Sequence record: NC_054919.1
Reading direction: 5' to 3' (one strand)
Origin: Escherichia phage vB_EcoM_G4507
Length of the DNA stretch: 64,000 nt
Positions 13,751 to 51,700 of this stretch are shown here, piece after piece. Made by a program: the position numbers and the translations under genes. Under the pieces are notes generated by a model. It was not told the DNA's origin and ran no database searches. It worked only from the letters and a program-made list of their open reading frames with translations. Positions within the stretch are counted from its first letter, which is position 1; every line of letters begins with the position of its first letter.

Positions 13751-13752
13751 TT

Positions 13753-18509: not shown

Positions 18510-18564
18510 AATAATCTCAATTAAAAGGGCTTAGAACCATTATACCATCCTTGGTATAAAGCGG

Positions 18565-19092: not shown

Positions 19093-19120
19093 TTTCTGTT
19101 CCTCCGTAGTTGATATGGTA

Positions 19121-19150
19121 ATAGTACCACAGAGGAACAGTCTTGTAAAC
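19121..19150 (-). promoter_or_regulatory. T4-type early promoter
   Basis: GTTTAC, 18 nt, TACTAT; about 30 nt upstream of ATG at 19092. Confidence 0.55.
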
Positions 19151-19152
19151 AA

Positions 19153-19455: not shown

Positions 19456-19556
19456 TACTACCTCCATTTACCAGTTTAATTCTAGTCATCTTTTTGATGG
19501 CAGTCCATATAATCTATTTCTGAACTGCCTTTTTATCTTAGAAGGCCTCTTATGAA

Positions 19557-20525: not shown

Positions 20526-20559
20526 TTTATTCTCCAAATCCGTATCAGTTGATAGTTGT

Positions 20560-20589
20560 ATAGTACCATAAAGCTTTATGCTTGTAAAC
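20560..20589 (-). promoter_or_regulatory. T4-type early promoter
   Basis: GTTTAC, 18 nt, TACTAT; upstream of ATG at 20525. Confidence 0.55.
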
Positions 20590-20620
20590 TGTTTTGTGAA
20601 AAAATTTTTTGAAATAAAAA

Positions 20621-20638
20621 GGGAGCCCGAAGGCTCCC
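20621..20638 (-). terminator. UUCG tetraloop hairpin
   Basis: GGGAGCC-CGAA-GGCTCCC, 3' of nucleotidyltransferase gene and 5' of early promoter. Confidence 0.55.
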
Positions 20639-20640
20639 TA

Positions 20641-21654
20641 TCATTTATAATAACTTCGGTGGTTTTCAAGATAAACCCTCTCAAGGAAGTCATCCCAGAA
20701 ACCCATGTCTACTTTTTGCTGCATACCGTTCTTAGAAGCTTCAGTAGATGCTGCTTCTACTTGATCGACCACATCTTCCAAAAACTCTTGAACTATTTTA
20801 AATGGATGTTTACCCAACTTCACGTCGAGAATAAATGGAGCATCTTGAAGTGGATAAATCAAGTCACCAGTTTTGTAAATTTCCAATAGTTGAAGTCCAC
20901 CACGACAAGCATGACTCAGAGCTTTCCAGTCAATGCCTTCATTGGCTTCGGCCTTACGAGCACGTTCACCATATTCAGCATCTAATTTGTTCAGTGACTG
21001 CTTAAGCTCAATAAGAGAAAGCGTTGTCTGATATTTACGACCCAACACAGTGTAGAACGTTTGAGGACCTGTTTTCTCGTGGTTATGGAATACCCATTCA
21101 CAGAATTCGTTCTCTGGAAGACGATGCTTAATATCTTCAACTTTAGTACGACGATGCTTAATGGAACCGTCTTCTTGGTAATCAACCCACTGATCGGGGA
21201 TTTGATTAACGACTTTCAATACATCGCGTAATGCAGCCAAACGAGAACCTTTAACACCATATTTAGAGGCTTGTTTACGAACATATCCTAAATAAGATTT
21301 CATGTTCGTCGTATAAAAACGAGAACGGTTGTCTTGAATAAACTTCCACACATCAGGCAAATCAGATTTAACCACTAGTTCAGGTGGAGTGTGAAGCATA
21401 TCCAATGCTACAGTTTCACCATCTGCTGCTAATTTAAAGAAATACTTAAGACTATACAATTCATGGTCAATATCATCTTTAGTGTTTTTAGATGATGTGT
21501 TGTTGGTATTTTTACTCATATGCTCTTTAACATTTCCGATAAGAATATCACGAGCAGGAGGAACAAAAATTTCTTTAAAATCTACATCAGATTCTGGAGT
21601 AGAAGTTCCATAAAGATGACTACCAAAATAGCTTTTCATTACTGTTTTCATCAT
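20641..21654 (-). CDS. Pol-beta-type nucleotidyltransferase-fold protein
   Basis: N-terminal GSHLYGTSTPESDVD (G[SG]x10DxD) minimal nucleotidyltransferase signature; 337 aa. Confidence 0.5.
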   Translation of the reverse strand: MMKTVMKSYFGSHLYGTSTPESDVDFKEIFVPPARDILIGNVKEHMSKNTNNTSSKNTKDDIDHELYSLKYFFKLAADGETVALDMLHTPPELVVKSDLPDVWKFIQDNRSRFYTTNMKSYLGYVRKQASKYGVKGSRLAALRDVLKVVNQIPDQWVDYQEDGSIKHRRTKVEDIKHRLPENEFCEWVFHNHEKTGPQTFYTVLGRKYQTTLSLIELKQSLNKLDAEYGERARKAEANEGIDWKALSHACRGGLQLLEIYKTGDLIYPLQDAPFILDVKLGKHPFKIVQEFLEDVVDQVEAASTEASKNGMQQKVDMGFWDDFLERVYLENHRSYYK

Positions 21655-22112
21655 TCAGCCTTATATTCAATAACAGGACATACTTTAGCTTTACGAGCTT
21701 TTAAAAATTCAACGATAATCGATTTCTTGGATTGAATAGGAGTTAAACCTTTATACGCCCTATCAATATTTTCTACGTGTAAAGCATAATCCTTTTTCCA
21801 TTTATAATCTTTATATTTTTCACGCAAATGTGCAGGAATAACAAATGAACTGATAATAAGTAAAACAACCAAAAGCGCAAGTATAAATGCCGATGGAAGA
21901 AGAGTCCATAAACTGCCAAAAATAAACCAACGCTGTAGGCTTTCTGCACAAATAATTGTTAGTCCTACGAGTATAGCACATCCAAAAATAGAAACGAAAA
22001 ATGTAGGAATAACAATAGACCAAAAATACGCGCATAGTGTCTTAGGTCGTTGCCATTCATCGTTAAACAATTTGAATAATTTATAGTGCCAAGAGTTTTC
22101 ATTAATAATCAT
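21651..22112 (-). CDS. Membrane protein
   Basis: Two long hydrophobic segments. Confidence 0.5.
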   Translation of the reverse strand: MIINENSWHYKLFKLFNDEWQRPKTLCAYFWSIVIPTFFVSIFGCAILVGLTIICAESLQRWFIFGSLWTLLPSAFILALLVVLLIISSFVIPAHLREKYKDYKWKKDYALHVENIDRAYKGLTPIQSKKSIIVEFLKARKAKVCPVIEYKAE

Positions 22113-22114
22113 AA

Positions 22115-22636
22115 TTATCCTTTCATTGAAGGCGTAACGGTTGTTAAATACTTAATCATAGCTTCAGCTTCTGATTTTGATAATGAAATTTCTCCATTGT
22201 TTTGACGAATAGAAATAAAATCCGGATGACGGTCACCACCAGCTTTTAAAACGCACATATAAGTATCAACTTCGCCTTCAATATTTGAAATGATTGAAGC
22301 AGTTCCACATGAATGTGGTTTTTGATAAATCAATACAGCTTTTCTTCCACCGTTTGACTGTTCATAGGCTTTTAATACATCAAGCAAATCAGTTCTTTTA
22401 TCAATAGCTAAAATGTTATTTTCATCTTCAATGTTAAATCCTTCGGATACTTCATAAAGTGTTACCCATAAATCACCGATGTCAATAACAGCATTTACTT
22501 TTCCACGACTTTCAAGAGTATGACAAATTTTCTTGATTTCGTCATAACTCATTTTAATAATATCATCTCCTTGACTAAGGAAGATGTCATTTTTAAATTC
22601 AACACGAATTAAACCGCTTCCACTTGAAATAAACAT
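22115..22636 (-). CDS. Hypothetical protein (paralog of 22643-23197)
   Basis: C-terminal SEAEAMIKYLTTVTPSM similar to neighbour. Confidence 0.5.
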   Translation of the reverse strand: MFISSGSGLIRVEFKNDIFLSQGDDIIKMSYDEIKKICHTLESRGKVNAVIDIGDLWVTLYEVSEGFNIEDENNILAIDKRTDLLDVLKAYEQSNGGRKAVLIYQKPHSCGTASIISNIEGEVDTYMCVLKAGGDRHPDFISIRQNNGEISLSKSEAEAMIKYLTTVTPSMKG

Positions 22637-22642
22637 ATTTCC

Positions 22643-23197
22643 TCACTTTGAAATCATAGTTGGAATAACAGAATCAAGATAAGTCTTTAGTGCAATAGCT
22701 TCGTCTTTGGTAAATGTGACAATATGTGCTCGAGAATCATCAATTTGGCGAACAAGTACGACATCGCCATCTTCATAAGAAGTCTTGACATCCAAAGTCG
22801 TAGTATAATTTGCAGCTACTGGATTAATAATGCTAGCACCGCGATCTTTAGCCCATTGAAGTTTAGCCTTTTCGGGTGTTTCGATTGTTTCAGATTCCAA
22901 GAATTCTTTCACCTTGGTAACGAATGTTGCCCAATTGTTGATAGAAAGACACATAAATTCAGTTTCAATATTACCGCCGTAAAGGCCACGATAAAAACGA
23001 ACTTGGAGGTCGCCTGTAATATTAGTTACACCGGTAACTCCTGAGGGAGCATAAGATAAAATCGCAGCCAGTTCCATAGGAAGAATAGTAATACTATCGT
23101 CTTCCTGCGTCAGAACGTATACATTATCACGTTTTTCGATAACCAGGTCACCTAACAAATCAGTTGTTTCAATTACAGCTTTCATATTATTTACCAA
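22643..23197 (-). CDS. Hypothetical protein (paralog of 22115-22636)
   Basis: C-terminal DEAIALKTYLDSVIPTM. Confidence 0.5.
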   Translation of the reverse strand: MVNNMKAVIETTDLLGDLVIEKRDNVYVLTQEDDSITILPMELAAILSYAPSGVTGVTNITGDLQVRFYRGLYGGNIETEFMCLSINNWATFVTKVKEFLESETIETPEKAKLQWAKDRGASIINPVAANYTTTLDVKTSYEDGDVVLVRQIDDSRAHIVTFTKDEAIALKTYLDSVIPTMISK

Positions 23198-23372
23198 TTA
23201 AAGTTTCAATATAAGAATCAAGATTTACTTTAGCTTCTTCCATAAGAGTTTTGTATTTAATCTTGTTAGCATGTCCGGAGAAAGCTGATTCATCAATAAT
23301 TGTTGATGTATGAACAGCTCTACTATACGTCTCAATTAATTCTCTTAATTTAAAAGCCTGCTCACTTGTCAT
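23187..23372 (-). CDS. Small acidic helical protein (paralog family)
   Basis: ORF track; similar to 23700-24136 and 25911-26281 ORFs. Confidence 0.45.
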   Translation of the reverse strand: MTSEQAFKLRELIETYSRAVHTSTIIDESAFSGHANKIKYKTLMEEAKVNLDSYIETLIGK

Positions 23373-23494
23373 TACATACTCCTTTGAATAATATCAATAA
23401 TGTTGTTCACCAAATTATACGTAAACATTGGGTAATTATATTGAATCATCACATACACAACAAACAAAACTTTCATTCTCTTCTCCTTGGCAGT

Positions 23495-23524
23495 TGACAA
23501 GATTACTATACCATAACCTTGCCA
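23495..23524 (-). promoter_or_regulatory. T4-type early promoter
   Basis: GTTTAC, 18 nt, TATAGT. Confidence 0.45.
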
Positions 23525-23699
23525 ACTTGTAAACCATTAAATGACGTTTTCGATAAAATTCTGAAGCTTTGTATGAGCATCAACCATGATTTTCATTTCT
23601 TCCTTTGCGAAAGCTGTGCCTCTTTCACGAGAAGAACATTCATAGTCAGAAACTGCATTAGCATATTCTTCAATTAGCTTCATTAAAAACATCTGCTTT

Positions 23700-23894
23700 T
23701 CAGTTTTCATTATTCCACCTAATCATTTCAAGATATTGAACTAACTTAGCTTTGGATTTATCCAAATCCTTTTTAGCTGTTTCTATACCGTCGTATGAAT
23801 ATCCTTCACAATGCTCAACTGCTAATTGATATGAATCTATTTCAACATCACGTGCTAATTTAATGATTTTTTCAAACTGTTCGTGTGTTAACAT
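23700..23894 (-). CDS. Small acidic helical protein (paralog family)
   Basis: ORF track. Confidence 0.45.
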   Translation of the reverse strand: MLTHEQFEKIIKLARDVEIDSYQLAVEHCEGYSYDGIETAKKDLDKSKAKLVQYLEMIRWNNEN

Positions 23895-23896
23895 AA

Positions 23897-24136
23897 TTAA
23901 ACTCTCATATTATGATCGATAATTTCATCAAGAAACATATCTAACGCTTCTATAGCATTATCCACTTTAGTTTCAAAGTCTTTAATGCCTTTATTCGAAA
24001 TACCCGATGAATACCAAGCAAAGTCAATCAGCTCTTCATCTGCTTTGCGAATTGAAGCCACTAATTCCTTGATTTTATCTGCTTGCTCTACGCTAATCAT
24101 TATTCCACCACATATGACAGAGAGAATATTGCACAC
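23897..24136 (-). CDS. Small acidic helical protein (paralog family)
   Basis: ORF track. Confidence 0.45.
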
Positions 24137-26863: not shown

Positions 26864-27314
26864 AATCCACCACTATTAAATCAATATCAGGAGTAAACAT
26901 GTCGATTAATTTAGAAACCTTATCCCAATCGCCGCCAGCAATACCACAACCTATACGTGGAATGTAAATTACTGGTTTAAACAAAAGGGTTTCTGCCTGT
27001 AGATTTAATTCTATCATGCAGTTTACTAAAGCACCATAATCAAGATTAGGACCTGGTTCGTATTGCGTATACAAGTTATAACATATGCCAAACCCATTAG
27101 GTTTATGTTTAAAAACAATAGACATATCGCCTAATTTATCACGAGAACCGTACTCAGTAGTGGTTTTATCTATTTCTAAAATTTTGGGATAGGCTCTTGC
27201 TAATTGACCAGCTACACCACTGCCCATTGTATGAAAACAGTTACACCCGTGCGCAATAATATTACCTTCAAGAAAGAGGGCGACAATATCGCCCTTGATA
27301 TATTTTACAATCAT
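26835..27314 (-). CDS. Macro-domain-like protein (possible ADP-ribose binding/processing)
   Basis: GDIV..., HGCNC..MGSGVA and IGCGIAGG motifs resemble macro-domain Gly-rich loops. Confidence 0.4.
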   Translation of the reverse strand: MIVKYIKGDIVALFLEGNIIAHGCNCFHTMGSGVAGQLARAYPKILEIDKTTTEYGSRDKLGDMSIVFKHKPNGFGICYNLYTQYEPGPNLDYGALVNCMIELNLQAETLLFKPVIYIPRIGCGIAGGDWDKVSKLIDMFTPDIDLIVVDYESTLPTSV

Positions 27315-38031: not shown

Positions 38032-38118
38032 TGGTGCGAGAAGTGAGACTCGAACCCACAAGGAAATAATTCCGCAGCATTTTAAGTGCTGTGCCTTTAC
38101 CAATTTGACCATTCTCGC
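38032..38118 (-). tRNA. tRNA-Leu (anticodon UAA), type II
   Basis: Matches T4 tRNA-Leu; anticodon loop CUUAAAA. Confidence 0.85.
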
Positions 38119-38119
38119 G

Positions 38120-38192
38120 CTGGGAATAAAGGACTCGAACCTTTGCATCCTGGAATCAAAATCCAGTGCCTTACCAACTTGGCTAATTCCCA
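38120..38192 (-). tRNA. tRNA-Gln (anticodon UUG)
   Basis: Matches T4 tRNA-Gln; 1 nt from tRNA-Leu (Gln-Leu dimer); CCA not encoded. Confidence 0.85.
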
Positions 38193-38289
38193 ATTATTAA
38201 CAAAGGCTCTTTAGCAAGAACCCTTGATGATAGAGGGTATTAATCAGTGCGGTATGAGTTAATAATAACAAATAATTCTTAAAGCATAT

Positions 38290-38583
38290 TTACCATTTAT
38301 GATAATACATATTTACGATGCATTCAAGGCCCAAAGGATTCCTGAAAATATCATATTCAAGAGGACCTTTTTCTGTTTCAATAAAGAAATCAAAATTTAC
38401 TGTATTAAATTTACGGTCTTCCTTCACTAATTTAACTTGGGAAGATGAACGGTCAACATAAACCTTTTCAACTTCAAAACACGTTAAAACGCCATAATCA
38501 TCAATCAAGGCTTTAGCCGCGTCTTGATCATATTTATATCCATTTTCAATGGACGATACTTTTGCATAAAGAATCATTATCAC
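38290..38583 (-). CDS. Hypothetical protein
   Basis: ORF track. Confidence 0.5.
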   Translation of the reverse strand: MIMILYAKVSSIENGYKYDQDAAKALIDDYGVLTCFEVEKVYVDRSSSQVKLVKEDRKFNTVNFDFFIETEKGPLEYDIFRNPLGLECIVNMYYHKW

Positions 38584-38960
38584 ACTCCGTAGTCTATCTT
38601 GACCAATCTACCTTTGTAGTAGCCAAAGTTCTTTGGAAAGGCATCATACTCAAAGAAATCACGGTCAAGCGTTCTGCATTCATCACCATCAACATCATTA
38701 TAGAGCTTTTGCAAATCAGATTTAAAAAGCTCCTTATCCTCAACTGGCTCTGCTTTGTGCATCACAACCATGAGACCAAATCTGTTTGAGTATGCTATTG
38801 GGCATAGGTATTTGTTATCATACCCCTTCCACTGACCTTCTGTAAGATTGCTGAGCATACCCTGCACGAAGTGTTTCCATGTCTTGGGGATAGGGAACTT
38901 AATAGCATACTTATGTGTTAGTAGTACCCATCTGGTTCCACCCGATTTAATTAATTTCAT
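38580..38960 (-). CDS. Hypothetical protein
   Basis: ORF track; ATGA overlap. Confidence 0.5.
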   Translation of the reverse strand: MKLIKSGGTRWVLLTHKYAIKFPIPKTWKHFVQGMLSNLTEGQWKGYDNKYLCPIAYSNRFGLMVVMHKAEPVEDKELFKSDLQKLYNDVDGDECRTLDRDFFEYDAFPKNFGYYKGRLVKIDYGV

Positions 38961-39034
38961 AGTCTCAGCTACCTCAATATTAATTTAAGCAATATCATTC
39001 CTGTAAGGTAGTACTTTAGCATAAAGAATCATTG

Positions 39035-39445
39035 TCAGCCTCTATCAACGATAGCATGAGTATGGGCATTTACGATTTGCCACCAGTCGAAACGATTGAA
39101 ACCATAATCTGGTTTATTTTCATTTTCTTTAATGATATCACGCAGCTTATCTTCTGTTTCAGCATACGCAATTAAATCATCATATCCACCACAAGGGTAA
39201 TAATTATCACCTGCGAATAAAAGAAAATTTACCTTAGATGGATTTACATAATAATGGTCTTTAGGATATTTAGTTCCTCTCCAATCAGTTACTTCAACAT
39301 AACGGTAAGAAAATCCATTTTTACTTTCAATCCAACTCCACGCTTCAAAAGGAGTATTAAAAACTTTATCAGGTATTAAATTACCTTCAAAATGAGAAGG
39401 ATTTGCATAATCCCCAGCATAAACATAATATTCGTTAATACTCAT
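39035..39445 (-). CDS. Hypothetical protein
   Basis: ORF track; Tyr/Trp-rich. Confidence 0.5.
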   Translation of the reverse strand: MSINEYYVYAGDYANPSHFEGNLIPDKVFNTPFEAWSWIESKNGFSYRYVEVTDWRGTKYPKDHYYVNPSKVNFLLFAGDNYYPCGGYDDLIAYAETEDKLRDIIKENENKPDYGFNRFDWWQIVNAHTHAIVDRG

Positions 39446-39631
39446 TTATTCACCTTTAGAAATTTTATCCATAACGATAGCAATTAAACCAATTAAAAAT
39501 GCTACTACAAGTGAAAACGCATTTTCTGCTGTAGTTAATAATCCGCATATAAATCCAACAAACATTGAAAAACTAAAAGCAGAAGCAGAAATTGCAATAG
39601 CAACATTTCGAATTAATTCACAGCGTTTCAT
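39446..39631 (-). CDS. Small membrane protein
   Basis: ATG verified; hydrophobic helices; early promoter upstream. Confidence 0.5.
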   Translation of the reverse strand: MKRCELIRNVAIAISASAFSFSMFVGFICGLLTTAENAFSLVVAFLIGLIAIVMDKISKGE

Positions 39632-39659
39632 TTTATTCTCCTCAGTAGTTGATAGGGTA

Positions 39660-39689
39660 ATAGTATCACAACTAAAACCCTATGTAAAC
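39660..39689 (-). promoter_or_regulatory. T4-type early promoter
   Basis: GTTTAC, 18 nt, TACTAT. Confidence 0.55.
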
Positions 39690-39707
39690 AACTTTGTGAA
39701 AAATTTA

Positions 39708-39992
39708 TTACAAAAGATTTTTAGCAATAATTTTAAGCTGAGCTACTGAAATATGCTTGGCTTTAAACAAAGCAGTTTCTTCAGCAGGGGAGATAATGAT
39801 TGTAGCACCATCTTTCTTAGCGGACCATCCATCACCCAGGTAAACAGTACCTTTAACTTCTTCGCCATCAACCAGGCTAATCATCGGTTTACCTTCACGT
39901 CCTTTGTTTGCTTTAATAACTTCAGAAGTAAGGGTCGCTTCAGTCAAAGTAGAAGCGTTAGTGGTTGAAGTGAATTCTTGATAAGTTTTCAT
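39708..39992 (-). CDS. Internal protein I-like with capsid-targeting sequence
   Basis: ATG verified; MKTYQEFTSTT... N-terminus; early promoter at 40023-40052; position upstream of 57B. Confidence 0.6.
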   Translation of the reverse strand: MKTYQEFTSTTNASTLTEATLTSEVIKANKGREGKPMISLVDGEEVKGTVYLGDGWSAKKDGATIIISPAEETALFKAKHISVAQLKIIAKNLL

Positions 39993-40022
39993 TTTATTTT
40001 CCTAATTAATTTTGATGAGGTA

Positions 40023-40052
40023 ATAGTATCACTACCTCATCAGCATGTAAAC
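40023..40052 (-). promoter_or_regulatory. T4-type early promoter upstream of IPI-like gene
   Basis: GTTTAC, 18 nt, TACTAT. Confidence 0.55.
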
Positions 40053-40064
40053 AACTTTGTGAAA

Positions 40065-40761
<697 letters not shown>

Positions 40762-40762
<1 letters not shown>

Positions 40763-41487
40763 TATAGTACCTTTAGTGTATTTTTAATTTTAGAAAAAAG
40801 TTCTTCAAGAGAACCATCGTTTGTAATTACTAAATCGCCATCACGAATTGGCAATCCAGCTTCTGTAATATGTGTATCATTGGATTTTTGACCAGGACGA
40901 ACTACATGAATTACTGTAGCACCCATCGCCCTAGCCGCATCCATTTCATGATCTTGACGGGTATCAGGAACGATATAATAATCATAACCTGAGTTAAATT
41001 TATCAAGATAATCTAAAGCAAATAATTTTACCCAGTACATGCGGTCGAAGTTATTAACAATCAAATCCGTACCTAGGGCTTGCATCAGACGACGGACTGA
41101 CCATTGATCTTCAATATTATTTATAACGTCAATAATCTTGTTAAATGCTACGGAATTAACTAATTCTTGTCCTTCGTCATCAAAAACAAACACACCCTTA
41201 ATTGGGCTTTTACCATTAAGATAGCAAAATGCTTGTTCCATAATCGTGATTACTTCTAATTTAGTCAGATTTAAATTAGTCTCACGATCATAGTCAATTC
41301 CTTCAAACTCTTTACGAGTTAAGCAAGGATAGCCAGTGTTTGCTGCAAATACTCCCCATGCATAAGCCAATGCATCCTTAATAGGACCAGCAAGTTGGTA
41401 TTTAACTGCAGAATAATTGCTCATGATAAAATCAGCAGTAGTATCTTTTCCACTACGCTTTACACCGCTTAAAAAGATTAGTTTCAT
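40762..41487 (-). CDS. 1: Deoxynucleoside monophosphate kinase gp1
   Basis: ATG at 41487 gives 241 aa (T4 gp1 length); P-loop GVKRSGKDT. Confidence 0.85.
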
Positions 41488-41536
41488 GTGTTTCTCCTCA
41501 AATTTAATTAAGATTATAACACACAAAACTGAAGCA

Positions 41537-42067
41537 TTAAACTTCTGCTATAATTTTTCCATCTTTTTCTACTTGAAAATAGGTGTAAGGAATCGTTGCA
41601 GTACATACTAAAGCCGGGTCTGAATCTTCCGTATAGCTAAATTCTACTTCAGATAGGTCAGAAACCCAAGGCTTATAAAAATTTATTGACATCACGATTT
41701 CAGTTTTGCTATTATCTAAGATGTAAAGCGTAATGTACTCAGGACCTGTTTTTTGGGCAGTATTTTCACCTGTAAGATAGTTGCTAGTTCCTAGCATCCA
41801 TTCATACATTCCTATCCATGACTTAAGTTCTTCATCAACTATAAATCTCACAATGAGTGGATCATACTCAAATGTAACACCTGGACGTTGTGCTCGGCCC
41901 AGTCCAAACGGCCCAGTCACGGTATCAGTAACAGGTATTCTAATTCCTGGAATAGGAACTGACTGAGCATTTAAAGTAAAAGCAGATGTAGTATTACTAT
42001 GTGGTATTGATACTACAAAGTTAGTTGTATTTGCTTGGTTAAAAATTTGTTGCAGAGCTTGCGACAT
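41537..42067 (-). CDS. 3: Tail tube terminator / sheath stabiliser gp3
   Basis: ATG at 42067 (GAGGA SD) gives 176 aa, the T4 gp3 length; synteny. Confidence 0.75.
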   Translation of the reverse strand: MSQALQQIFNQANTTNFVVSIPHSNTTSAFTLNAQSVPIPGIRIPVTDTVTGPFGLGRAQRPGVTFEYDPLIVRFIVDEELKSWIGMYEWMLGTSNYLTGENTAQKTGPEYITLYILDNSKTEIVMSINFYKPWVSDLSEVEFSYTEDSDPALVCTATIPYTYFQVEKDGKIIAEV

Positions 42068-42173
42068 ATATTCCTCATAATGCTTTATAACTGTTAGTGG
42101 TATAATGGGTCTAAGTCCCTTCCATTCAATTCCATTTAGAACAAACAACAGAAAAGAATGGAAGATAATAGAA

Positions 42174-42998
42174 TTAGATATTTGACCAGACTTTGTTTGC
42201 AGAGAAACGTTTTCCTTTTGAAACGAACTGCTGAAGTGGCATCAACACAACGTTCGCCCAGTCTTTCGGGGCGATTTCAACAAGGCTACCCATAATATTA
42301 CCGGGTATATATGCCTTAATCATTTGGTCTGCACCCCTAAATCCTTTCACTTGACTCCAATCAATTTTTAATTTCGTTTTATTAGTAATAGTAGGTGTAT
42401 TTGAATATTGCTTTAAAAGCTCTTCTAGAAATTGCTGACGAGCTTTAGGTGGAATATAGTGCAAGTTTAATCCGTACATTAAATTGTGCTTACCTAAACC
42501 AAGGTAAATTATCAAAGGAAATTTATCCCAGTAAGGAAGAGTTTCCTTGTGTTTAGCATCATAAGCAAAAGCATATATTCGTCCCGGCTGCGGGCGAACA
42601 ACTTTATGTCCTTTTACTTGCTTAATAGTTTCAGCAAACCATTTTCTGGTTTTATTATTAATTGCTGCGCCTTCATTACGAATTTTATCACGCAATGTTT
42701 GTCTGAATGAATTTATCATAAGCAGTTGTCTTTCTTGCTTATTGAGCTTATTCATTGGTTTTGATTCAAGCTTTTGAATCTTTTCAGCTGTTTTAATTCC
42801 TGAAGCATATTTTGACATTGCTGAAGTAAACGTGGAGTATTTGATTCCTCTTTCTTCAGCAAATTGTTTTCCTGTCATTCCTTTTGCTTTGGCCTTTTTA
42901 TATTCAAGACCTATTTGAATCCATTTCTTTTCGTTTAATGATTGCTTAACCTTTGGAACTTGGGGAGTGCTTTCATTAATTATTTGAAAAATAGCCAT
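42174..42998 (-). CDS. 2: DNA end protector protein gp2
   Basis: 274 aa, T4 gp2 length; basic; synteny. Confidence 0.8.
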
Positions 42999-43450
42999 TA
43001 TGCCCCCTTAAAGCCAAGAGCTCGTAATCCATCTTCTGTTAGAATTCTAAATTTTATTCCACGCTTTTCAGCTAAAGATTGCGCTGCTTTCCATTTGTCA
43101 GTGTTCACAGACCAGGTATAAATTTCATTCATAAATCTTTTCTTCGCTGCGGTTGTTAGATGTGCTGGTTTAACTGGTGGTTGTGTTTCTTTTTTAGGTT
43201 TTATTTCAATAAAAAATTCTTGTCCAGAAGAATCTTTCATCCAAATATCCATGAAGTATCTACGTTTTTTCCCTTCTGCATTACAAAAATAAGGAATTAC
43301 TGCTGTTTCACTACCCCATGCAATAATTTCTGGATTTTTATCTAACCATTCAAAAAAGAATTTTTCCCAATTTGATCTATACGTAATTTTTTTAGGGTCA
43401 CCTCTATATTTTGATATATTTTTAGGAACCCATTTTCCAGAATATGCCAT
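42998..43450 (-). CDS. 4: Head completion protein gp4
   Basis: 150 aa, T4 gp4 length; late promoter upstream. Confidence 0.8.
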
Positions 43451-43461
43451 TGGATTCTCCT

Positions 43462-43469
43462 TATAAATA
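43462..43469 (+). promoter_or_regulatory. T4 late promoter (TATAAATA) for gene 53 and baseplate operon
   Basis: TATAAATA about 29 nt upstream of gp53 ATG. Confidence 0.6.
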
Positions 43470-43476
43470 GATAATA

Positions 43477-43484
43477 TATTTATA
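43477..43484 (-). promoter_or_regulatory. T4 late promoter (TATAAATA), divergent, for gene 4
   Basis: TATAAATA on minus strand about 27 nt upstream of gp4 ATG. Confidence 0.5.
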
Positions 43485-43497
43485 AACAGGAGGGCCC

Positions 43498-44088
43498 ATG
43501 CTCTTTACATTTTTTGATCCGATTGAATATGCGGCCAAAACGGTGAATAAAAACGCGCCGACTATTCCTATGACAGATATTTTTAGAAACTATAAAGACT
43601 ATTTTAAACGCGCTCTTGCGGGATACCGCTTACGTACTTATTATATTAAAGGTTCACCACGCCCGGAAGAATTAGCAAATACTATATATGGAAATCCACA
43701 GTTGTATTGGGTTTTATTGATGTGTAATGATAATTATGACCCGTATTATGGATGGATTACTTCGCAAGAAGCTGCTTATCAGGCATCTATACAAAAATAC
43801 AAAAACGTAGGTGGAGACCAAATAGTATATCATGTAAATGAGAACGGTGAAAAATTTTATAATTTAGTATCATACGATGATAATCCATATGTTTGGTATG
43901 ACAAAGGTGATAAAGCTAGAAAATATCCTCAATATGAAGGAGCACTTGCTGCTGTTAATACGTATGAAGCTGCTGTTCTTGAAAATGAAAAACTTCGTCA
44001 AATAAAAATAATAGCAAAATCAGACATCAATTCATTTATGAACGACCTTATACGTATAATGGAGAAATCTTATGGAAATGATAAGTAA
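43498..44088 (+). CDS. 53: Baseplate wedge protein gp53
   Basis: 196 aa, T4 gp53 length; AGGAGG SD; late promoter TATAAATA at 43462. Confidence 0.85.
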   Translation: MLFTFFDPIEYAAKTVNKNAPTIPMTDIFRNYKDYFKRALAGYRLRTYYIKGSPRPEELANTIYGNPQLYWVLLMCNDNYDPYYGWITSQEAAYQASIQKYKNVGGDQIVYHVNENGEKFYNLVSYDDNPYVWYDKGDKARKYPQYEGALAAVNTYEAAVLENEKLRQIKIIAKSDINSFMNDLIRIMEKSYGNDK

Positions 44089-45976
44089 TAACCTTAATTG
44101 GTTTGTTGGTGTTGTTGAAGATAGAATGGACCCATTAAAATTAGGTCGTGTTCGTGTTCGTGTGGTTGGTCTGCATCCACCACAAAGAGCACAAGGTGAT
44201 GTAATGGGTATTCCAACTGAAAAATTACCATGGATGTCAGTTATTCAACCTATAACTTCTGCAGCAATGTCTGGAATTGGAGGTTCCGTTACTGGACCGG
44301 TAGAAGGAACTAGAGTTTATGGTCATTTTTTGGACAAATGGAAAACTAACGGAATTGTTCTTGGCACGTATGGTGGAATAGTTCGCGAAAAACCGAATAG
44401 ACTTGAAGGATTTTCTGACCCGACTGGGCAATATCCTAGACGTTTAGGAAATGATACTAACGTACTAAACCAAGGCGGAGAAGTAGGATATGATTCGTCT
44501 TCTAACATTATCCAAGATAGTAACTTAGACACCGCAATAAATCCCGATGATAGACCACTATCAGAGATTCCAACTGATGATAATCCAAATATGTCAATGG
44601 CTGAAATGCTTCGCCGTGATGAAGGATTAAGACTAAATTTTTTTTTTTTTTTTTTTTTTAAGAGACAGAGATGGTTTTTTTTTTTTTTTTTTTCAAGCAG
44701 AAGACGGCATACGAGATCAGCCTCGGTCTCGTGGGCTCGGAGATGTGTATAAGAGACAGATCCAAATATGTCAATGGCTGAAATGCTTCGCCGTGATGAA
44801 GGATTAAGACTAAAAGTTTATTGGGATACAGAAGGATATCCGACAATTGGTATTGGTCATCTTATCATGAAGCAGCCAGTTCGTGATATGACCCAAATTA
44901 ATAAAGTTTTATCAAAACAAGTTGGTCGTGAAATTACCGGAAATCCAGGTTCTATTACAATGGAAGAAGCGGTAACTTTATTTGAACGCGATTTGGCTGA
45001 TATGCAACGTGACATTAAATCACATTCTAAAGTAGGACCAGTCTGGCAAGCTGTCAACCGTTCTCGTCAAATGGCATTAGAAAATATGGCATTTCAGATG
45101 GGTGTTGGCGGTGTAGCTAAATTTAACACAATGTTAACTGCTATGTTAGCAGGAGATTGGGAAAAAGCATATAAAGCCGGTCGTGATTCATTGTGGTATC
45201 AACAAACAAAAGGCCGTGCATCCCGTGTTACCATGATTATTCTTACGGGGAATTTGGAATCATATGGTGTTGAAGTGAAAACTCCAGCTAGGTCTTTGTC
45301 GGCAATGGCTGCTACTGTGGCGAAGTCTTCTGATCCAGCTGACCCTCCTATTCCAAATGACTCAAGAATTTTATTCAAAGAACCAGTTTCTTCATATAAA
45401 GGCGAATATCCTTATGTGCATACAATGGAAACTGAAAGTGGACATATTCAGGAATTTGATGATACCCCTGGGCAAGAACGATATAGATTAGTTCATCCAA
45501 CTGGAACTTATGAAGAAGTATCACCGTCAGGGAGAAGAACAAGAAAAACAGTTGATAATTTATATGATATAACCAACGCTGATGGTAATTTTTTGGTAGC
45601 CGGTGATAAAAAGACTAACGTCGGTGGTTCAGAAATTTATTATAACATGGATAATCGTCTTCACCAAATAGATGGAAGCAATACAATATTTGTACGTGGC
45701 GATGAAACTAAGACGGTTGAAGGTAATGGAACTATCCTAGTTAAAGGTAATGTTACTATTGTAGTTGAAGGTAATGCTGACATTACAGTTAAAGGAGATG
45801 CTACTACTTTAGTTGAAGGAAATCAGACTAATACAGTAAATGGAAATCTTTCTTGGAAAGTTGCTGGGACAGTTGATTGGGACGTTGGTGGTGATTGGAC
45901 AGAAAAAATGGCATCTATGAGTTCTATTTCATCTGGTCAATACACAATTGATGGATCGAGGATTGACATTGGCTAA
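44072..45976 (+). CDS. 5: Baseplate hub / tail lysozyme gp5, reading frame broken by a 177-bp non-biological insertion (44638-44814)
   Basis: N-terminal ORF MEMISNNLNWFVGVVED... and C-terminal ORF (lysozyme domain [21 protein letters not shown], beta-helix VEGN repeats) match T4 gp5; removing the insert gives 576 codons in frame. Confidence 0.9.
44638..44814. other. Sequencing-library artifact: poly-T runs, Nextera mosaic-end fragments, Illumina P7/i7 index primer, plus a 55-bp duplication of flanking gene-5 sequence
   Basis: CAAGCAGAAGACGGCATACGAGAT-CAGCCTCG-GTCTCGTGGGCTCGGAGATGTGTATAAGAGACAG at 44694-44759; the 8-mer matches the Nextera N710 index as recalled; 44583-44637 repeated at 44760-44814. 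Confidence 0.95.
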
Positions 45977-45986
45977 TATACTTCCA

Positions 45987-46505
45987 ATGAGCGCTGATTT
46001 AGGAGAATCCATGGAAGGTTCTTCTATCGACGTCACCTTTACCGCTCAATTAGAAACAGGTGAAACGTTAGTATCTATAAATATAACTAGTTACGAAGAA
46101 ACTCCTGGGGTTTTAGTAGAAGAAAATCGCTTATATGGAACATATGAATCTGTGTTTGGATTTGGAAATGACGCGTTGAAATATCGTTTAGGTGATGAAT
46201 TTAAAACTGTTGCTTCATGGGAAGAACTTCCTACTGATTCTGATACTCAGTTGTATTTGTGGAAAGCTCCTCAAAATCTCCAGAAGACATTCACTTACGA
46301 AGTAACATTAATATATGACTACCAAGAACAAAGTGAATCTGGAGGTTCTGGCAGTAATTCTAGGTCATCTTCTGATACTACTGAACCAACAGATCCTCCT
46401 GCTCCAGTAAGAAAAACTCTCGTTAAAAATTATACTAAAACTATAGTTGGAAATTGGAGTCGTTGGGCTAATAAATTAAGAAGCTATGTGTATGAGAGGT
46501 CATAG
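45987..46505 (+). CDS. 5.1: gp5.1-position hypothetical protein
   Basis: ATG at 45987 after gp5 stop; Ser/Gly-rich linker. Confidence 0.6.
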
Positions 46506-46799
46506 ATGTCAGGATTAAGTTATGATAAATGTGTTACTGCTGGTCATGAAGCATGGCCTCCAACAGTTGTGAATGCTACACAAAGTAAAGTATTCACTGG
46601 AGGAATTGCTGTTCTCGTAGCAGGTGATCCAATTACAGAACATACAGAAATTAAAAAGCCATATGAAACACATGGCGGAGTGACACAACCTAGAACTTCT
46701 AAGGTATATGTCACAGGAAAGAAAGCTGTTCAAATGGCTGATCCAATATCATGCGGTGATACTGTGGCTCAGGCATCATCTAAAGTATTCATTAAATAG
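46506..46799 (+). CDS. 5.4: Spike-tip PAAR-like protein gp5.4
   Basis: 97 aa, T4 gp5.4 length; directly downstream of gene 5. Confidence 0.75.
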
Positions 46800-46807
46800 G
46801 ATTTAAA

Positions 46808-48790
46808 ATGGCAAATACCCCTGTAAATTATCAATTAACAAGAACAGCAAATGCTATTCCCGAGATATTCGTCGGGGGTACGTTTGCTGAAATAAAACAA
46901 AACCTCATTGAATGGCTTAATGGCCAAAATGAATTTTTGGATTATGATTTTGAAGGCTCAAGATTAAACGTTCTGTGCGACCTTTTAGCTTATAATACAT
47001 TGTACATTCAGCAGTTTGGTAATGCTGCTGTGTATGAAAGCTTTATGCGTACTGCTAACTTACGAAGTTCAGTTGTTCAGGCTGCACAAGATAATGGATA
47101 TTTACCTACTTCAAAATCCGCTGCACAGACCGAAATTATGTTAACATGCACCGACGCATTGAATAGGAATTACATTACTATTCCTCGCGGAACTCGCTTT
47201 TTAGCATATGCAAAAGATACTTCTGTTAATCCATATAACTTCGTTTCTACCGAAGACGTTATTGCTATTCGTGATAAAAATAACCAATATTTTCCACGAT
47301 TAAAATTAGCCCAGGGACGTATAGTAAGAACTGAAATCATTTATGATAAATTAACACCTATTATCATTTATGACAAAAACATAGATAGAAACCAAGTTAA
47401 ACTATACGTTGATGGAGCAGAATGGATTAACTGGACAAGAAAGTCAATGGTTCATGCTGGTTCTACATCAACAATTTACTACATGCGTGAAACTATTGAT
47501 GGAAACACTGAATTCTATTTTGGCGAAGGTGAAATTTCTGTTAATGCGGCAGAAGGAGCTCTAACTGCTAACTATATTGGAGGTCTTAAACCTACCCAGA
47601 ACTCTACTATTGTTATTGAGTACATCAGTACTAACGGTGCAGATGCGAATGGTGCAGTCGGATTTTCATACGCAGATACATTAACAAATATAACTGTCAT
47701 CAATATTAACGAAAATCCAAATGATGACCCAGATTTTGTTGGGGCAGATGGCGGTGGCGATCCAGAAGATATTGAGCGTATTCGCGAATTGGGTACTATT
47801 AAACGCGAAACCCAGCAACGCTGCGTAACTGCGACCGACTATGATACATTCGTTTCAGAGAGATTTGGTTCTATTATTCAAGCTGTGCAGACTTTCACTG
47901 ATTCTACTAAACCTGGGTATGCATTTATTGCTGCTAAACCTAAATCAGGACTATATTTAACTACTGTGCAACGTGAAGATATTAAAAATTATCTCAAAGA
48001 CTATAATTTAGCGCCTATTACACCGTCAATTATTTCTCCTAATTATCTTTTTATTAAGACTAATTTAAAAGTCACATATGCTTTAAATAAACTACAAGAA
48101 TCCGAACAGTGGCTTGAAGGTCAAATAATTGATAAAATTGATCGCTATTATACCGAAGATGTAGAAATTTTTAACTCATCTTTTGCCAAGTCTAAGATGT
48201 TAACTTACGTAGATGATGCAGATCATTCTATCATTGGTTCATCAGCGACTATTCAAATTGTTCGTGAAGTACAAAACTTCTATAAAACGCCTGAAGCAGG
48301 TATTAAATACAATAATCAAATAAAAGATCGTTCTATGGAATCTAATACGTTTTCATTTAATTCTGGACGAAAGGTTGTAAATCCTGATACTGGTTTAGAA
48401 GAAGATGTATTATATGACGTTCGTATAGTATCAACAGACCGAGATTCTAAAGGAATTGGTAAAGTTATTATTGGTCCATTTGTTTCTGGCGATGTTACAG
48501 AAAATGAAAACATTCAGCCGTATACGGGCAACGATTTTAACAAATTAGCAAATTCTGATGGACGCGACAAATACTATGTTATCGGTGAAATAAATTATCC
48601 AGCTGACATGATTTATTGGAATATCGCTAAAATTAATTTAACATCTGAAAAATTTGAAGTTCAGACTATTGAATTATATTCTGACCCAACTGATGATGTT
48701 ATCTTTACTCGCGATGGTTCACTGATTGTATTTGAAAATGACTTACGTCCACAATACTTAACTATCGATTTGGAGCCTATATCACAATGA
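46808..48790 (+). CDS. 6: Baseplate wedge protein gp6
   Basis: 660 aa, T4 gp6 length; synteny. Confidence 0.85.
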   Translation: MANTPVNYQLTRTANAIPEIFVGGTFAEIKQNLIEWLNGQNEFLDYDFEGSRLNVLCDLLAYNTLYIQQFGNAAVYESFMRTANLRSSVVQAAQDNGYLPTSKSAAQTEIMLTCTDALNRNYITIPRGTRFLAYAKDTSVNPYNFVSTEDVIAIRDKNNQYFPRLKLAQGRIVRTEIIYDKLTPIIIYDKNIDRNQVKLYVDGAEWINWTRKSMVHAGSTSTIYYMRETIDGNTEFYFGEGEISVNAAEGALTANYIGGLKPTQNSTIVIEYISTNGADANGAVGFSYADTLTNITVININENPNDDPDFVGADGGGDPEDIERIRELGTIKRETQQRCVTATDYDTFVSERFGSIIQAVQTFTDSTKPGYAFIAAKPKSGLYLTTVQREDIKNYLKDYNLAPITPSIISPNYLFIKTNLKVTYALNKLQESEQWLEGQIIDKIDRYYTEDVEIFNSSFAKSKMLTYVDDADHSIIGSSATIQIVREVQNFYKTPEAGIKYNNQIKDRSMESNTFSFNSGRKVVNPDTGLEEDVLYDVRIVSTDRDSKGIGKVIIGPFVSGDVTENENIQPYTGNDFNKLANSDGRDKYYVIGEINYPADMIYWNIAKINLTSEKFEVQTIELYSDPTDDVIFTRDGSLIVFENDLRPQYLTIDLEPISQ

Positions 48791-51700
48791 CAGTAAAAGC
48801 ACCTTCAGTCACTAGTCTCAGAATTTCCAAGTTATCCGCTAATCAGGTGCAAGTACGCTGGGATGACGTTGGTGCTAATTTCTACTACTTTGTAGAAATC
48901 GCTGAGACAAAATCAAACTCGGGAGAAAATCTCCCGAGTAATCAATATCGTTGGATTAATTTAGGATATACAGCAAATAATAGTTTCTTTTTTGATGATG
49001 CTGATCCACTGACATCATATGTTATTAGAGTAGCTACAGCTGCGCAAGATTTTGAGCAGTCTGATTGGATTTATACCGAAGAGTTTGAAACTTTTGCTAC
49101 AAATGCTTATACATTTCAAAACATGATTGAAATGCAATTAGCCAATAAATTCATTCAGGAAAAATTTACTCTTAATAATTCTGATTATGTTAATTTCAAT
49201 AATGACACAATAATGGCTGCGTTGATGAATGAATCATTTCAGTTCAGCCCATCGTATGCTGATGTCTCATCAATCAGTAATTTTATTATTGGTGAAAACG
49301 AGTATCATGAAATACAAGGTTCTATTCAGCAAGTATGTAAGGATATTAACCGAGTTTATTTGATGGAATCAGAAGGGATTCTATATCTTTTTGAGCGTTA
49401 TCAACCTGTAGTTAAAGTATCCAATGATAAAGGACAAACCTGGAAAGCTGTAAAGCTCTTCAATGACCGTGTAGGATATCCTTTATCTAAGACTGTATAT
49501 TACCAATCTGCAAACACAACATACGTTCTAGGATACGATAAGATTTTCTATGGCCGTAAATCGACTGACGTTAGATGGTCAGCAGATGATGTCAGATTCA
49601 GTTCACAGGATATAACATTTGCTAAATTAGGAGACCAACTTCATTTAGGATTCGATGTTGAAATCTTCGCTACTTATGCGACTTTACCAGCGAATGTATA
49701 CCGTATAGCTGAAGCCATTACTTGTACGGATGATTATATCTATGTTGTTGCCAGAGATAAAGTTAGATATATAAAAACGAGTAATGCACCTATAGATTCT
49801 GACCCGTTATCACCAACATACTCGGAAAGACTTTTTGAACCTGATACAATGACTATAACTGGAAATCCTAAAGCTGTATGCTATAAAATGGATTCTATTG
49901 GTGATAAAGTTTTTGCTCTTATTATTGGTGAAGTTGAAACATTAAATGCCAATCCGAGAACTTCAAAAATAATTGATTCCGCTGATAAAGGAATATATGT
50001 TTTGAATCAAGACACGAAAACATGGAAAAGAGTTTTCGGTAATACCGAAGAAGAAAGAAGACGTATTCAACCTGGATACGCAAACATGTCAACTGATGGT
50101 AAATTAGTTTCTCTGTCTTCGAGTAATTTTAAATTTTTAAGTGATAACGTTGTTAATGACCCTGAAACTGCTGCAAAATACCAGTTAATCGGTGCTGTCA
50201 AATATGAATTTCCTCGCGAATGGTTAGCTGATAAACATTATCATATGATGGCGTTTATAGCGGATGAAAAATCTGATTGGGAGACTTTTACTCCTCAACC
50301 GATGAAATACTACGCAGAACCGTTCTTTAATTGGTCTAAAAAATCTAACACTCGTTGTTGGATAAACAACTCTGATAAAGCTGTTGTAGTTTATGCAGAT
50401 TTGAAATACACCAAAGTTATTGAAAATATTCCAGAAACGTCACCAGATAGATTAGTGCATGAATACTGGGATGATGGCGATTGCACTATAGTAATGCCAA
50501 ATGTTAAATTCACTGGATTTAAAAAATACGCATCAGGAATGCTTTTTTATAAATCTTCTGGTGAAATAATTTCTTATTATGATTTTAACTATCGTGTGAG
50601 AGATACAGTAGAAATTATTTGGAAGCCGACTGAAGTATTTTTAAAAGCATTTTTACAAAACCAAGAGCGTGAAACTCCTTGGTCACCAGAAGAAGAACGT
50701 GGATTAGCTGACCCTGATTTAAGACCATTAATTGGCACAATGATGCCTGATTCTTATTTGTTACAAGATTCTAATTTTGAGGCATTTTGCGAAGCATATA
50801 TTCAGTATCTTTCTGATGGATATGGAACTCAGTATAACAATTTACGAAATTTAATTCGTAACCAATATCCACGAGAAGAGCATGCGTGGGAATATTTATG
50901 GTCAGAAATATATAAAAGAAACATTTATTTAAATGCTGACAAACGCGATGCTGTTGCAAGATTTTTTGAATCACGTAGCTATGATTTTTATTCTACTAAA
51001 GGAATTGAAGCATCATATAAATTTCTTTTTAAAGTTCTTTATAATGAAGAAGTTGAAATTGAAATTGAATCGGGAGCAGGTACTGAATATGATGTAATCA
51101 TTCAATCTGATTCTCTTACAGAAGATTTAGTAGGACAAACTATCTATACTGCAACTGGAAGATGTAATGTTACTTATATAGAAAGAAGTTATTCTAATGG
51201 TAAATTGCAATGGACTGTGACTATACATAATCTTTTGGGGCGGTTAATAGCAGGACAAGAAGTTAAAGCAGAAAGACTTCCGGGCTTTGAAGGTGAAATT
51301 ATTCGTGGGGTTAAAGGAAAAGATTTGCTTCAAAATAATATAGACTATATTAATAGAAGTAGATCATATTATGTAATGAAAATTAAATCCAATTTACCTT
51401 CTTCCCGCTGGAAATCTGACGTTATTCGTTTTGTTCACCCAGTAGGATTTGGATTTATAGCAATCACGCTTTTAACTATGTTTATTAATGTCGGTTTAAC
51501 TCTTAAACACACAGAGACAATAATTAATAAATATAAAAACTATAAATGGGATTCTGGATTGCCTACTGAATATGCTGATAGAGTAGCTAAATTGACTCCA
51601 ACTGGTGAAATTGAGCATGATTCGGTAACAGGCGAAGCAATTTATGAGCCTGGCCCAATGGCTGGTGTAGAATATCCTCTTCCTGATGACTATAATGCTG

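What the first reader, a model, noticed from the sequence alone, without database searches (positions are those of the whole stretch)
44072..45976. Gene 5 is intact once the artifact is removed
Deleting 44638-44814 rejoins ...[36 protein letters not shown]... in frame. The resulting 576 codons (575 aa) equal the T4 gp5 length, with OB-fold N-terminus, lysozyme domain and C-terminal VEGN beta-helix repeats. The two-ORF appearance is therefore not a real split, intein or programmed frameshift.
Basis: partly seen in the sequence, partly recalled or inferred. Interest (0 to 1): 0.4.

Follow-up and report, generated by a model that had tools for sequence, protein, structure and literature searches.

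The report
Adapter scar splits intact phage gene 5
The apparent split of the T4-type tail-spike lysozyme gene (gene 5) is caused by a 177-base assembly scar made of an Illumina Nextera sequencing primer plus a 55-base duplication; without it the gene is ordinary, intact and already known.

Summary

**The insert.** Window 44638-44814 is 177 nt. It consists of:
- 56 nt of poly-T-like filler;
- a verbatim 66-nt Nextera i7 adapter: P7, index CAGCCTCG, N7 tail and the ME transposase end;
- an exact 55-nt copy of 44583-44637.

The TAA that ends "ORF1" lies inside the ME sequence, and both ORFs are in the same frame.

**After excision.** The result is 1,728 nt, or 575 aa.
- It has 0 nucleotide mismatches to gene 5 of Escherichia phage vB_EcoM_G10400.
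- It aligns without gaps, 1-575 to 1-575, with solved T4 gp5, with four substitutions.
- All gp5 domains, the three conserved lysozyme-domain residues and the S351/A352 cleavage-site residues are present.
- No intein or intron signal was found, and there is no frame change.

**The same scar elsewhere.** A scar with the same layout (55 + 56 + 66 + 55 nt) occurs once each, at different loci and with different indices, in three GenBank T4-like records. At least one of them (G10400) comes from a study that used Nextera/MiSeq and SPAdes with k = 55 and re-arranged its circularly permuted T4-like contigs. The scar is therefore most likely the old contig-end junction.

This is an artefact in a known gene. 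Its interest is low, apart from its value for sequence quality control.

The parts
44072..44637 (+). Gene 5, 5' part: codons 1-188 plus the first two bases of codon 189. Holds the OB-fold domain and the start of the lysozyme domain, including Glu184.
   Evidence: Pfam Gp5_OB covers residues 33-173.
44583..44637 (+). Copy 1 of the exact 55-nt direct duplication (gp5 codons ~171-189).
   Evidence: The two flanking alignments to G10400 overlap by exactly these 55 bases.
44638..44693 (+). 56-nt filler: T22, then AAGAGACAG (the 3' end of ME), then AGATGG, then T19. On the minus strand this reads as the poly-A tail of adapter read-through.
   Evidence: The filler is the same length (56 nt) in G10400, G4500 and KAW1E185, and is pure T56 in KAW1E185.
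44694..44717 (+). Illumina P7 flow-cell sequence CAAGCAGAAGACGGCATACGAGAT.
   Evidence: Exact match. Listed as part of the published indexing primers.
44718..44725 (+). i7 index CAGCCTCG, read as CGAGGCTG. This is primer 'Ad2.10_CGAGGCTG'.
   Evidence: PMC10440357, Table 1.
44726..44740 (+). Nextera read-2 (N7) tail GTCTCGTGGGCTCGG.
44741..44759 (+). Tn5 mosaic end (ME) AGATGTGTATAAGAGACAG. It contains the in-frame TAA (44750-44752) that terminates 'ORF1'.
44760..44814 (+). Copy 2 of the 55-nt duplication. It starts directly after ME, as the insert does in a tagmented library molecule. It contains the ATG (44768, gp5 Met174) that makes 'ORF2' look like a gene start.
44815..45976 (+). Gene 5, 3' part: last base of codon 189 through the stop. 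Holds the rest of the lysozyme domain (Asp193, Thr199), Ser351/Ala352, and the C-terminal beta-helix repeats.
   Evidence: 100% identical to G10400 from 44760 to 49945.
43498..44088 (+). Gene 53 (baseplate wedge protein). It overlaps the gene 5 start by 17 nt, as in G10400.
   Evidence: Pfam Phage_gp53, E = 2.8e-102. G10400 annotation.
46506..46799 (+). 97-aa PAAR-motif protein downstream of gene 5, at the position of T4 gene 5.4.
   Evidence: Pfam PAAR_motif, E = 9.4e-10. That this is the position of T4 5.4 is my own knowledge.
46808..48790 (+). Gene 6 (baseplate wedge protein gp6), 660 aa.
   Evidence: Five gp6 Pfam domains.

Best explanation
The window comes from a T4-like (Tequatrovirus) coliphage. 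Positions 44072-45976 hold one intact gene 5, the baseplate central-spike and tail-lysozyme protein gp5. In the assembled sequence it is interrupted by a 177-nt in-silico scar.

The scar has three parts: 56 nt of poly-T filler, the 66-nt Nextera i7 adapter (P7, index, N7 tail, ME), and a second copy of the preceding 55 nt of gene 5. The scar is a multiple of three, so the frame is kept. The ME sequence supplies an in-frame TAA, and the duplicated segment supplies Met174. An ORF finder therefore reports two ORFs.

The following steps are shown:
- the foreign DNA is a synthetic library primer;
- removing it restores a gene identical to an annotated gene 5;
- the same fixed-format scar exists in three public T4-like records.

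The following steps are inferred. Untrimmed read-through reads (insert, then ME', index', P7', then poly-A) created a tip on the k = 55 de Bruijn graph. The poly-A run collapsed to k+1 = 56 bases. The contig for the circularly permuted genome began in that tip and ended with the usual k-length (55-nt) overlap. When the contig was rotated to the conventional T4 gene order, its old ends were pasted together without removing the adapter or the overlap. In this genome that junction happened to fall in codon 189 of gene 5.

The confidence given (0.97) is for the main claim, that gene 5 is intact and the interruption is a sequencing and assembly artefact. The contig-end account of how the scar arose is less certain, about 0.7.
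For: **The insert is a library primer.**
- Exact P7, N7 tail and ME at 44694-44759, and a 55-nt exact duplication.
- The 53-nt primer CAAGCAGAAGACGGCATACGAGATCAGCCTCGGTCTCGTGGGCTCGGAGATGT is printed verbatim as indexing primer Ad2.10 in PMC10440357. 575 papers hold both halves of this primer design.

**The insert is absent from homologous loci.**
- 498 phage records cover at least 80% of the query.
- All 25 records listed span exactly 1,728 nt at this locus, in two pieces that skip the 122 foreign bases.

**Excision restores a known gene.**
- The window is collinear with G10400 on both sides, and the reference coordinates overlap by 55 nt.
- The joined gene has 0/1,728 mismatches to G10400 gene 5.
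- The joined protein aligns 1-575 to 1-575 with T4 gp5, with 4 substitutions.
- All four gp5 Pfam domains are present.

**The adapter part behaves like contamination.**
- It matches unrelated phages (Pseudomonas, Bacillus, Vibrio, Listeria, Stx phages), many at record ends.

**The scar has a fixed format elsewhere.**
- G10400, G4500 and KAW1E185 each have one scar of identical layout (55 / 56 / 66 / 55 = 177 nt). The loci and indices differ.
[quoted passage not shown] It does not contain the word stem 'trimm'. [quoted passage not shown]
Against: - No reads are available, so the artefact has not been shown by read mapping.
- The window's own record was not found. It is absent from the phage collection (best match 97% over 13 kb), from IMG/VR and the GTDB genomes, and ORF1 is not in the protein collection. 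That it came from the same pipeline as G10400 is therefore inferred from the identical scar format only.
- The filler here is not pure poly-T: it holds AAGAGACAGAGATGG. The simple 'collapsed poly-A self-loop' picture needs error-bearing or junk reads to explain this.
- The contig-rotation step is an inference from a methods sentence, not a documented event.
Confidence: 0.97

Rival explanations
1. The artefact is real but arose differently. A chimeric or untrimmed read was threaded through the graph as a small loop inside the contig (a local misassembly at a Tn5 hot spot), rather than at pasted contig ends. This is a rival only to the inferred origin of the scar, not to the main claim that gene 5 is intact.
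For: A 55-nt repeat on both sides of a foreign segment is also what a loop anchored on one k = 55 node looks like. Pseudomonas phage SaPL, from another laboratory, has the same adapter with a 249-nt duplication, so other routes to adapter-plus-duplication scars exist.
Against: There is exactly one scar in each of the three public genomes that carry it and one in this 64-kb window, at unrelated loci, and always of the same length. That pattern fits one contig closure per genome better than random internal loops. A loop also needs reads joining ...GACTAAA to poly-T, for which there is no obvious source.
Confidence: 0.2
2. Gene 5 is truly split in this phage into two polypeptides, an OB-domain protein (226 aa) and a lysozyme plus beta-helix protein (402 aa), by a real DNA insertion such as a mobile element.
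For: Taken at face value, the sequence has two ORFs. ORF2 happens to contain a complete lysozyme domain and the beta-helix.
Against: - 66 nt of the insert are a verbatim synthetic Illumina primer plus the ME end, including a sample index. Of the other 56 nt, 50 are T runs or an ME fragment.
- The ORF1 tail is poly-Phe nonsense.
- The insert is absent from all 25 listed homologous loci.
- The same construct sits at other loci in other records.
Confidence: 0.005
3. The interruption is an intein, a self-splicing intron or a programmed frameshift or bypass site, so that a full-length gp5 is still made from the interrupted sequence.
For: The insert length is a multiple of three, and T4-like phages are known to carry group I introns and a translational bypass (own knowledge).
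Against: - There is an in-frame TAA, and no protein-family match for the insert translation. Fifty-nine codons is far below intein size (own knowledge).
- No Rfam family matches at E <= 1 over 44000-46100 on either strand.
- There is no frame change between the ORFs.
- The sequence is a library primer.
Confidence: 0.002

Closest known systems
Bacteriophage T4 gp5 (baseplate central spike / tail-associated lysozyme; PDB 1k28, 1pdl, 5iv5)
   Same: After excision it has the same length (575 aa). It aligns without gaps, with 571/575 identical residues. It has the same OB, lysozyme and beta-helix architecture, the same E184/D193/T199 and S351/A352 residues, and the same neighbours: gene 53 upstream, a PAAR protein and gene 6 downstream.
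   Different: Four conservative substitutions (T4 to window): V146I, A215T, T242V, I505V.
Gene 5 of Escherichia phage vB_EcoM_G10400 (MK327937.1, QBO63666.1) and of phage ECP52 (ON782582.1)
   Same: G10400: 0 mismatches over 1,728 nt by direct comparison. ECP52: 100.0% identity reported over the aligned pieces.
   Different: Those records have no insert at this locus. G10400 carries its own scar of the same format elsewhere, at record ~110018-110127.
Illumina Nextera i7 indexing primer / adapter read-through contamination in deposited genomes
   Same: P7, an 8-nt index, GTCTCGTGGGCTCGG and ME are present verbatim, and ME abuts genomic sequence as in a tagmented library molecule. The same adapter is found in 109 phage records, many at their ends.
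   Different: Here the adapter is internal and flanked by a 55-nt duplication. In this genome it interrupts a coding sequence.

Membership tests
T4 gp5 (baseplate central spike / tail lysozyme) | Full-length collinear alignment with experimentally characterised T4 gp5 | tested here: met
   phmmer against PDB: 1-575 to 1-575, 1301 bits, no gaps. 4 substitutions.
T4 gp5 (baseplate central spike / tail lysozyme) | N-terminal OB-fold domain | tested here: met
   Pfam Gp5_OB, residues 33-173, E = 9.8e-66.
T4 gp5 (baseplate central spike / tail lysozyme) | Lysozyme domain with the residues equivalent to T4 lysozyme Glu11/Asp20/Thr26 | tested here: met
   Pfam Phage_lysozyme, residues 183-310. E184, D193 and T199 are present and identical to T4 gp5. 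The domain matches T4 lysozyme chains at 174-339. The catalytic role of these residues is established knowledge and was not tested here.
T4 gp5 (baseplate central spike / tail lysozyme) | C-terminal triple-stranded beta-helix built of octapeptide V-x-G-x-x-x-x-x repeats | tested here: met
   Pfam Gp5_C (3 stretches) and Gp5_trimer_C. VxG[ND] occurs at 482, 490, 498, 506, 514, 522 and 530. Matches gp5 beta-helix crystal fragments at 483-575.
T4 gp5 (baseplate central spike / tail lysozyme) | Maturation cleavage between Ser351 and Ala352 | not testable with these tools
   Residues S351 and A352 are conserved. Cleavage itself needs protein work. The cleavage site is from my own knowledge of the T4 literature.
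T4 gp5 (baseplate central spike / tail lysozyme) | Baseplate gene neighbourhood (53 - 5 - 5.1 - 5.4 - 6) | tested here: met
   Pfam Phage_gp53, PAAR_motif and gp6 domains on the flanking ORFs. The order is the same in the G10400 annotation.
Illumina Nextera i7 adapter (sequencing artefact) | Verbatim P7 + 8-nt index + GTCTCGTGGGCTCGG + ME, abutting the insert DNA | tested here: met
   Exact matches at 44694-44759. Identical to published primer Ad2.10_CGAGGCTG.
Illumina Nextera i7 adapter (sequencing artefact) | Absent from the homologous locus of relatives; present in unrelated records | tested here: met
   All 25 listed loci span 1,728 nt without the insert. The adapter part hits Pseudomonas, Bacillus, Vibrio, Listeria and other phage records, often at their ends.
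Illumina Nextera i7 adapter (sequencing artefact) | Not supported by trimmed reads or by PCR of the phage DNA | not testable with these tools
   No reads or DNA are available.
Intein | Uninterrupted in-frame coding sequence with a Hint-type splicing domain | tested here: not met
   TAA at 44750-44752 in frame. No Pfam family for the insert translation, even at E <= 0.1.
Self-splicing intron (group I/II) | Match to an intron covariance model or conserved structure | tested here: not met
   No Rfam match at E <= 1 in 44000-46100 on either strand.
Programmed ribosomal frameshift | Downstream ORF in a different frame from the upstream ORF | tested here: not met
   (44768 - 44072) mod 3 = 0, and the insert is 177 = 3 x 59 nt.

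The most novel reading that the evidence does not exclude
The adapter-bearing allele is physically present in the phage stock, for example through laboratory recombination between library DNA and replicating phage. The phage would then really make a split gp5, with an OB-domain protein and a separately initiated lysozyme plus beta-helix protein that still assemble into a working spike.
Probability: 0.003. Interest if true: 0.5.

Novelty: already known. Interest (0 to 1): 0.05.

Why it matters
Biologically it does not matter. Gene 5 here is a normal T4-type spike gene, identical to an already annotated one, and the split is not a real feature.

Its value is practical.
- Automated annotation of this sequence would report two truncated "genes", or a pseudogene, for an essential baseplate protein.
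- The same fixed 177-nt scar (55-nt repeat, 56-nt poly-T filler, 66-nt Nextera adapter, 55-nt repeat) is present in at least three deposited T4-like genomes. In one of them it is translated into an annotated protein.
- The pattern CAAGCAGAAGACGGCATACGAGAT-N8-GTCTCGTGGGCTCGGAGATGTGTATAAGAGACAG followed by a duplicated k-mer is a simple screen for such scars.

Tried and rejected
**Tracing the window's source record.** All attempts failed, so the link to the G10400 study's pipeline stays an inference.
- The 226-aa ORF1 is not in the protein collection.
- The exact ME/gene-5 junction is absent from IMG/VR and from the GTDB genome contigs.
- The best phage record over window 11000-24000 is only 97% identical.
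- No phage record contains the insert at gene 5.

**Rival readings tested and rejected.**
- Intron: Rfam search at E <= 1, no match.
- Intein or other domain in the insert translation: Pfam at E <= 0.1, no match.
- Frameshift: the two ORFs are in the same frame.

**Further scars in the window.** A search found no second ME-like site at up to 3 mismatches, no exact P5 or N5-tail sequence, and no other homopolymer of 12 or more.

The metagenome scan was not used, because provenance would not change the verdict.

Full report
**What is in the sequence**

The region holds two same-frame ORFs, 44072-44752 (226 aa) and 44768-45976 (402 aa). ORF1 ends in ...RLNFFFFFFFKRQRWFFFFFFSSRRRHTRSASVSWARRCV*. 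ORF2 restarts at [16 protein letters not shown]..., which repeats the last genuine residues of ORF1.

The DNA between the two genuine parts reads as follows:

| Coordinates | Content |
|---|---|
| 44638-44693 | T22, AAGAGACAG, AGATGG, T19 (56 nt) |
| 44694-44717 | CAAGCAGAAGACGGCATACGAGAT (P7) |
| 44718-44725 | CAGCCTCG (index) |
| 44726-44740 | GTCTCGTGGGCTCGG (N7 tail) |
| 44741-44759 | AGATGTGTATAAGAGACAG (ME) |
| 44760-44814 | Exact 55-nt copy of 44583-44637 |

The stop codon of ORF1, TAA at 44750-44752, lies inside ME.

**Identity of the foreign part**

The 53-nt string CAAGCAGAAGACGGCATACGAGATCAGCCTCGGTCTCGTGGGCTCGGAGATGT is printed verbatim as tagmentation indexing primer 'Ad2.10_CGAGGCTG' in PMC10440357. 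575 papers in the library hold both constant halves of that primer design. The remaining bases complete the 19-nt Tn5 mosaic end.

Read on the minus strand, the order is genomic DNA, ME', N7', index', P7', then poly-A. From my own knowledge, this is what an Illumina read 1 gives when it runs through a short insert.

ME occurs once in the 64-kb window even with 3 mismatches allowed, against 0.02 expected. The only long homopolymers in the window are the two T runs here.

The 122-nt foreign part matches 109 phage records from unrelated hosts (Pseudomonas, Bacillus, Vibrio, Listeria, Stx phages). Many of the matches sit at the first or last bases of a record, which is the pattern of adapter contamination rather than of a biological element.

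**Excision test**

- Removing 44638-44814 gives 1,728 nt, or 575 codons plus a stop. Because of the 55-nt repeat, all 56 equivalent 177-nt excisions give the same sequence.
- The product has 0/1,728 mismatches to the annotated gene 5 of Escherichia phage vB_EcoM_G10400 (MK327937.1, 'putative baseplate hub subunit and tail lysozyme').
- 498 phage records cover at least 80% of the query. All 25 listed span exactly 1,728 nt in two pieces that skip the foreign bases.
- Over the wider window, the two alignments flanking the scar (38186-44637 and 44760-49945) overlap by exactly 55 nt in G10400 coordinates, with nothing missing.
- The protein aligns 1-575 to 1-575 with T4 gp5 from solved structures (1pdl, 1k28, 5iv5), without gaps. 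It differs at four positions: 146, 215, 242 and 505.
- Pfam finds Gp5_OB (33-173), Phage_lysozyme (183-310), Gp5_C repeats and Gp5_trimer_C. VxG[ND] motifs recur every eight residues from 482 to 530.
- E184, D193 and T199 match T4 gp5, as do S351 and A352. From my own knowledge of the T4 literature, the first three correspond to the catalytic residues of T4 lysozyme, and S351/A352 is the maturation cleavage site.
- The scar sits in codon 189, between Glu184 and Asp193.
- The neighbours are gene 53, a PAAR protein at the position of T4 5.4, and gene 6.

**Rivals**

- Programmed frameshift is excluded, because the ORFs share a frame and the insert is 3 x 59 nt.
- An intein is excluded by the in-frame stop, the absence of any Pfam match, and the small size.
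- A self-splicing intron finds no support, with no Rfam match at E <= 1.
- A genuine insertion is not credible, because 66 of the 122 foreign bases are a synthetic, sample-indexed primer and nearly all the rest is poly-T or an ME fragment.

**How the scar probably arose (inferred)**

The public records of three related phages each contain one scar of exactly the same format: a 55-nt genomic copy, 56 nt of poly-T (pure T56 in KAW1E185), the 66-nt adapter, and the same 55-nt copy again, 177 nt in total. The loci and indices differ:

| Record | Index |
|---|---|
| G10400 (MK327937.1) | CTAGTACG |
| G4500 (MK327945.1) | GGCCGTGG |
| KAW1E185 (MK373781.1) | CGATCGGT |
| This window | CAGCCTCG |

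The study that lists G10400 (Korf et al. [quoted passage not shown] It contains no word beginning with 'trimm'. [quoted passage not shown]

The numbers fit k = 55: a 55-nt terminal overlap of a contig from a circular graph, and a poly-A/T self-loop collapsed to k+1 = 56.

I therefore think the contig began in an adapter read-through tip. I also think the scar is the place where the old contig ends were pasted together during rotation. A local loop misassembly is the main alternative, at about 0.2. It would not change the verdict on gene 5.

The window's own record could not be found. Its link to that pipeline therefore rests on the identical scar format alone.

**Verdict**

Gene 5 is an ordinary, intact and already known T4-type gene. 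The two-ORF appearance is not a real feature. Interest is low, apart from its use as a quality-control flag.

Noticed in passing
L003 28017-28130 (MK327937.1, record ~110018-110127, minus strand): The public G10400 record carries a 177-nt scar of the same format, with index CTAGTACG (primer Ad2.2). It sits at the start of CDS G10400_00188, and the 55-nt duplicate contains that gene's ATG.
   Followed up: yes
L004 239-470 (MK327945.1, record ~123962-124076): In phage G4500 the same 177-nt scar (index GGCCGTGG) lies inside annotated CDS G4500_00214 (QBO65890.1, 'hypothetical protein'). There is no stop in that frame. The deposited protein therefore appears to contain 59 spurious residues: FFFFFFFFFLLCGFLFFFFKQKTAYEMAVGLVGSEMCIRDR plus a repeat of YKGAWFERNINKHSHLNQ.
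   Followed up: partly
L005 234-465 (MK373781.1 / NC_054922.1, record ~146251-146360): Phage KAW1E185, including its RefSeq copy, has the same scar with a pure T56 filler and index CGATCGGT. It lies in the intergenic region between RNase H and the proximal long-tail-fibre gene.
   Followed up: partly
L006 32-634 (MH973725.1, Pseudomonas phage SaPL): The same Nextera adapter, with the same index CAGCCTCG, sits inside an annotated 'hypothetical protein'. It is flanked by a 249-nt direct duplication, so this is a different pipeline with the same class of error.
   Followed up: partly
window 36552-38192 (minus strand): ARAGORN predicts 12 tRNA genes here, including His, Asn, Tyr, Gln and a 94-nt Lys call. 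The G10400 annotation lists 7 tRNAs plus a 'group I intron endonuclease' gene between tRNA-Arg and tRNA-Met, which the window lacks.
   Followed up: no
window 15062-16102; also 2798-3393, 8479-8799, 22778-23371, 26866-27165, 34857-35389: These stretches have no megablast match to G10400, while the flanks are 95-99% identical. They include a 350-aa minus-strand ORF (15120-16172) that sits between its 309-aa and 339-aa minus-strand neighbours. Conversely, G10400 has about 1 kb (G10400_00080) that the window lacks near 11179-11401. This looks like typical T4-like mosaicism.
   Followed up: no
window 42998-43450 (minus strand): The ORF at the position of T4 gene 4 (head completion protein) matches Pfam Tn7_TnsA-like_N, an endonuclease fold, at E = 1.9e-21.
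   Followed up: no
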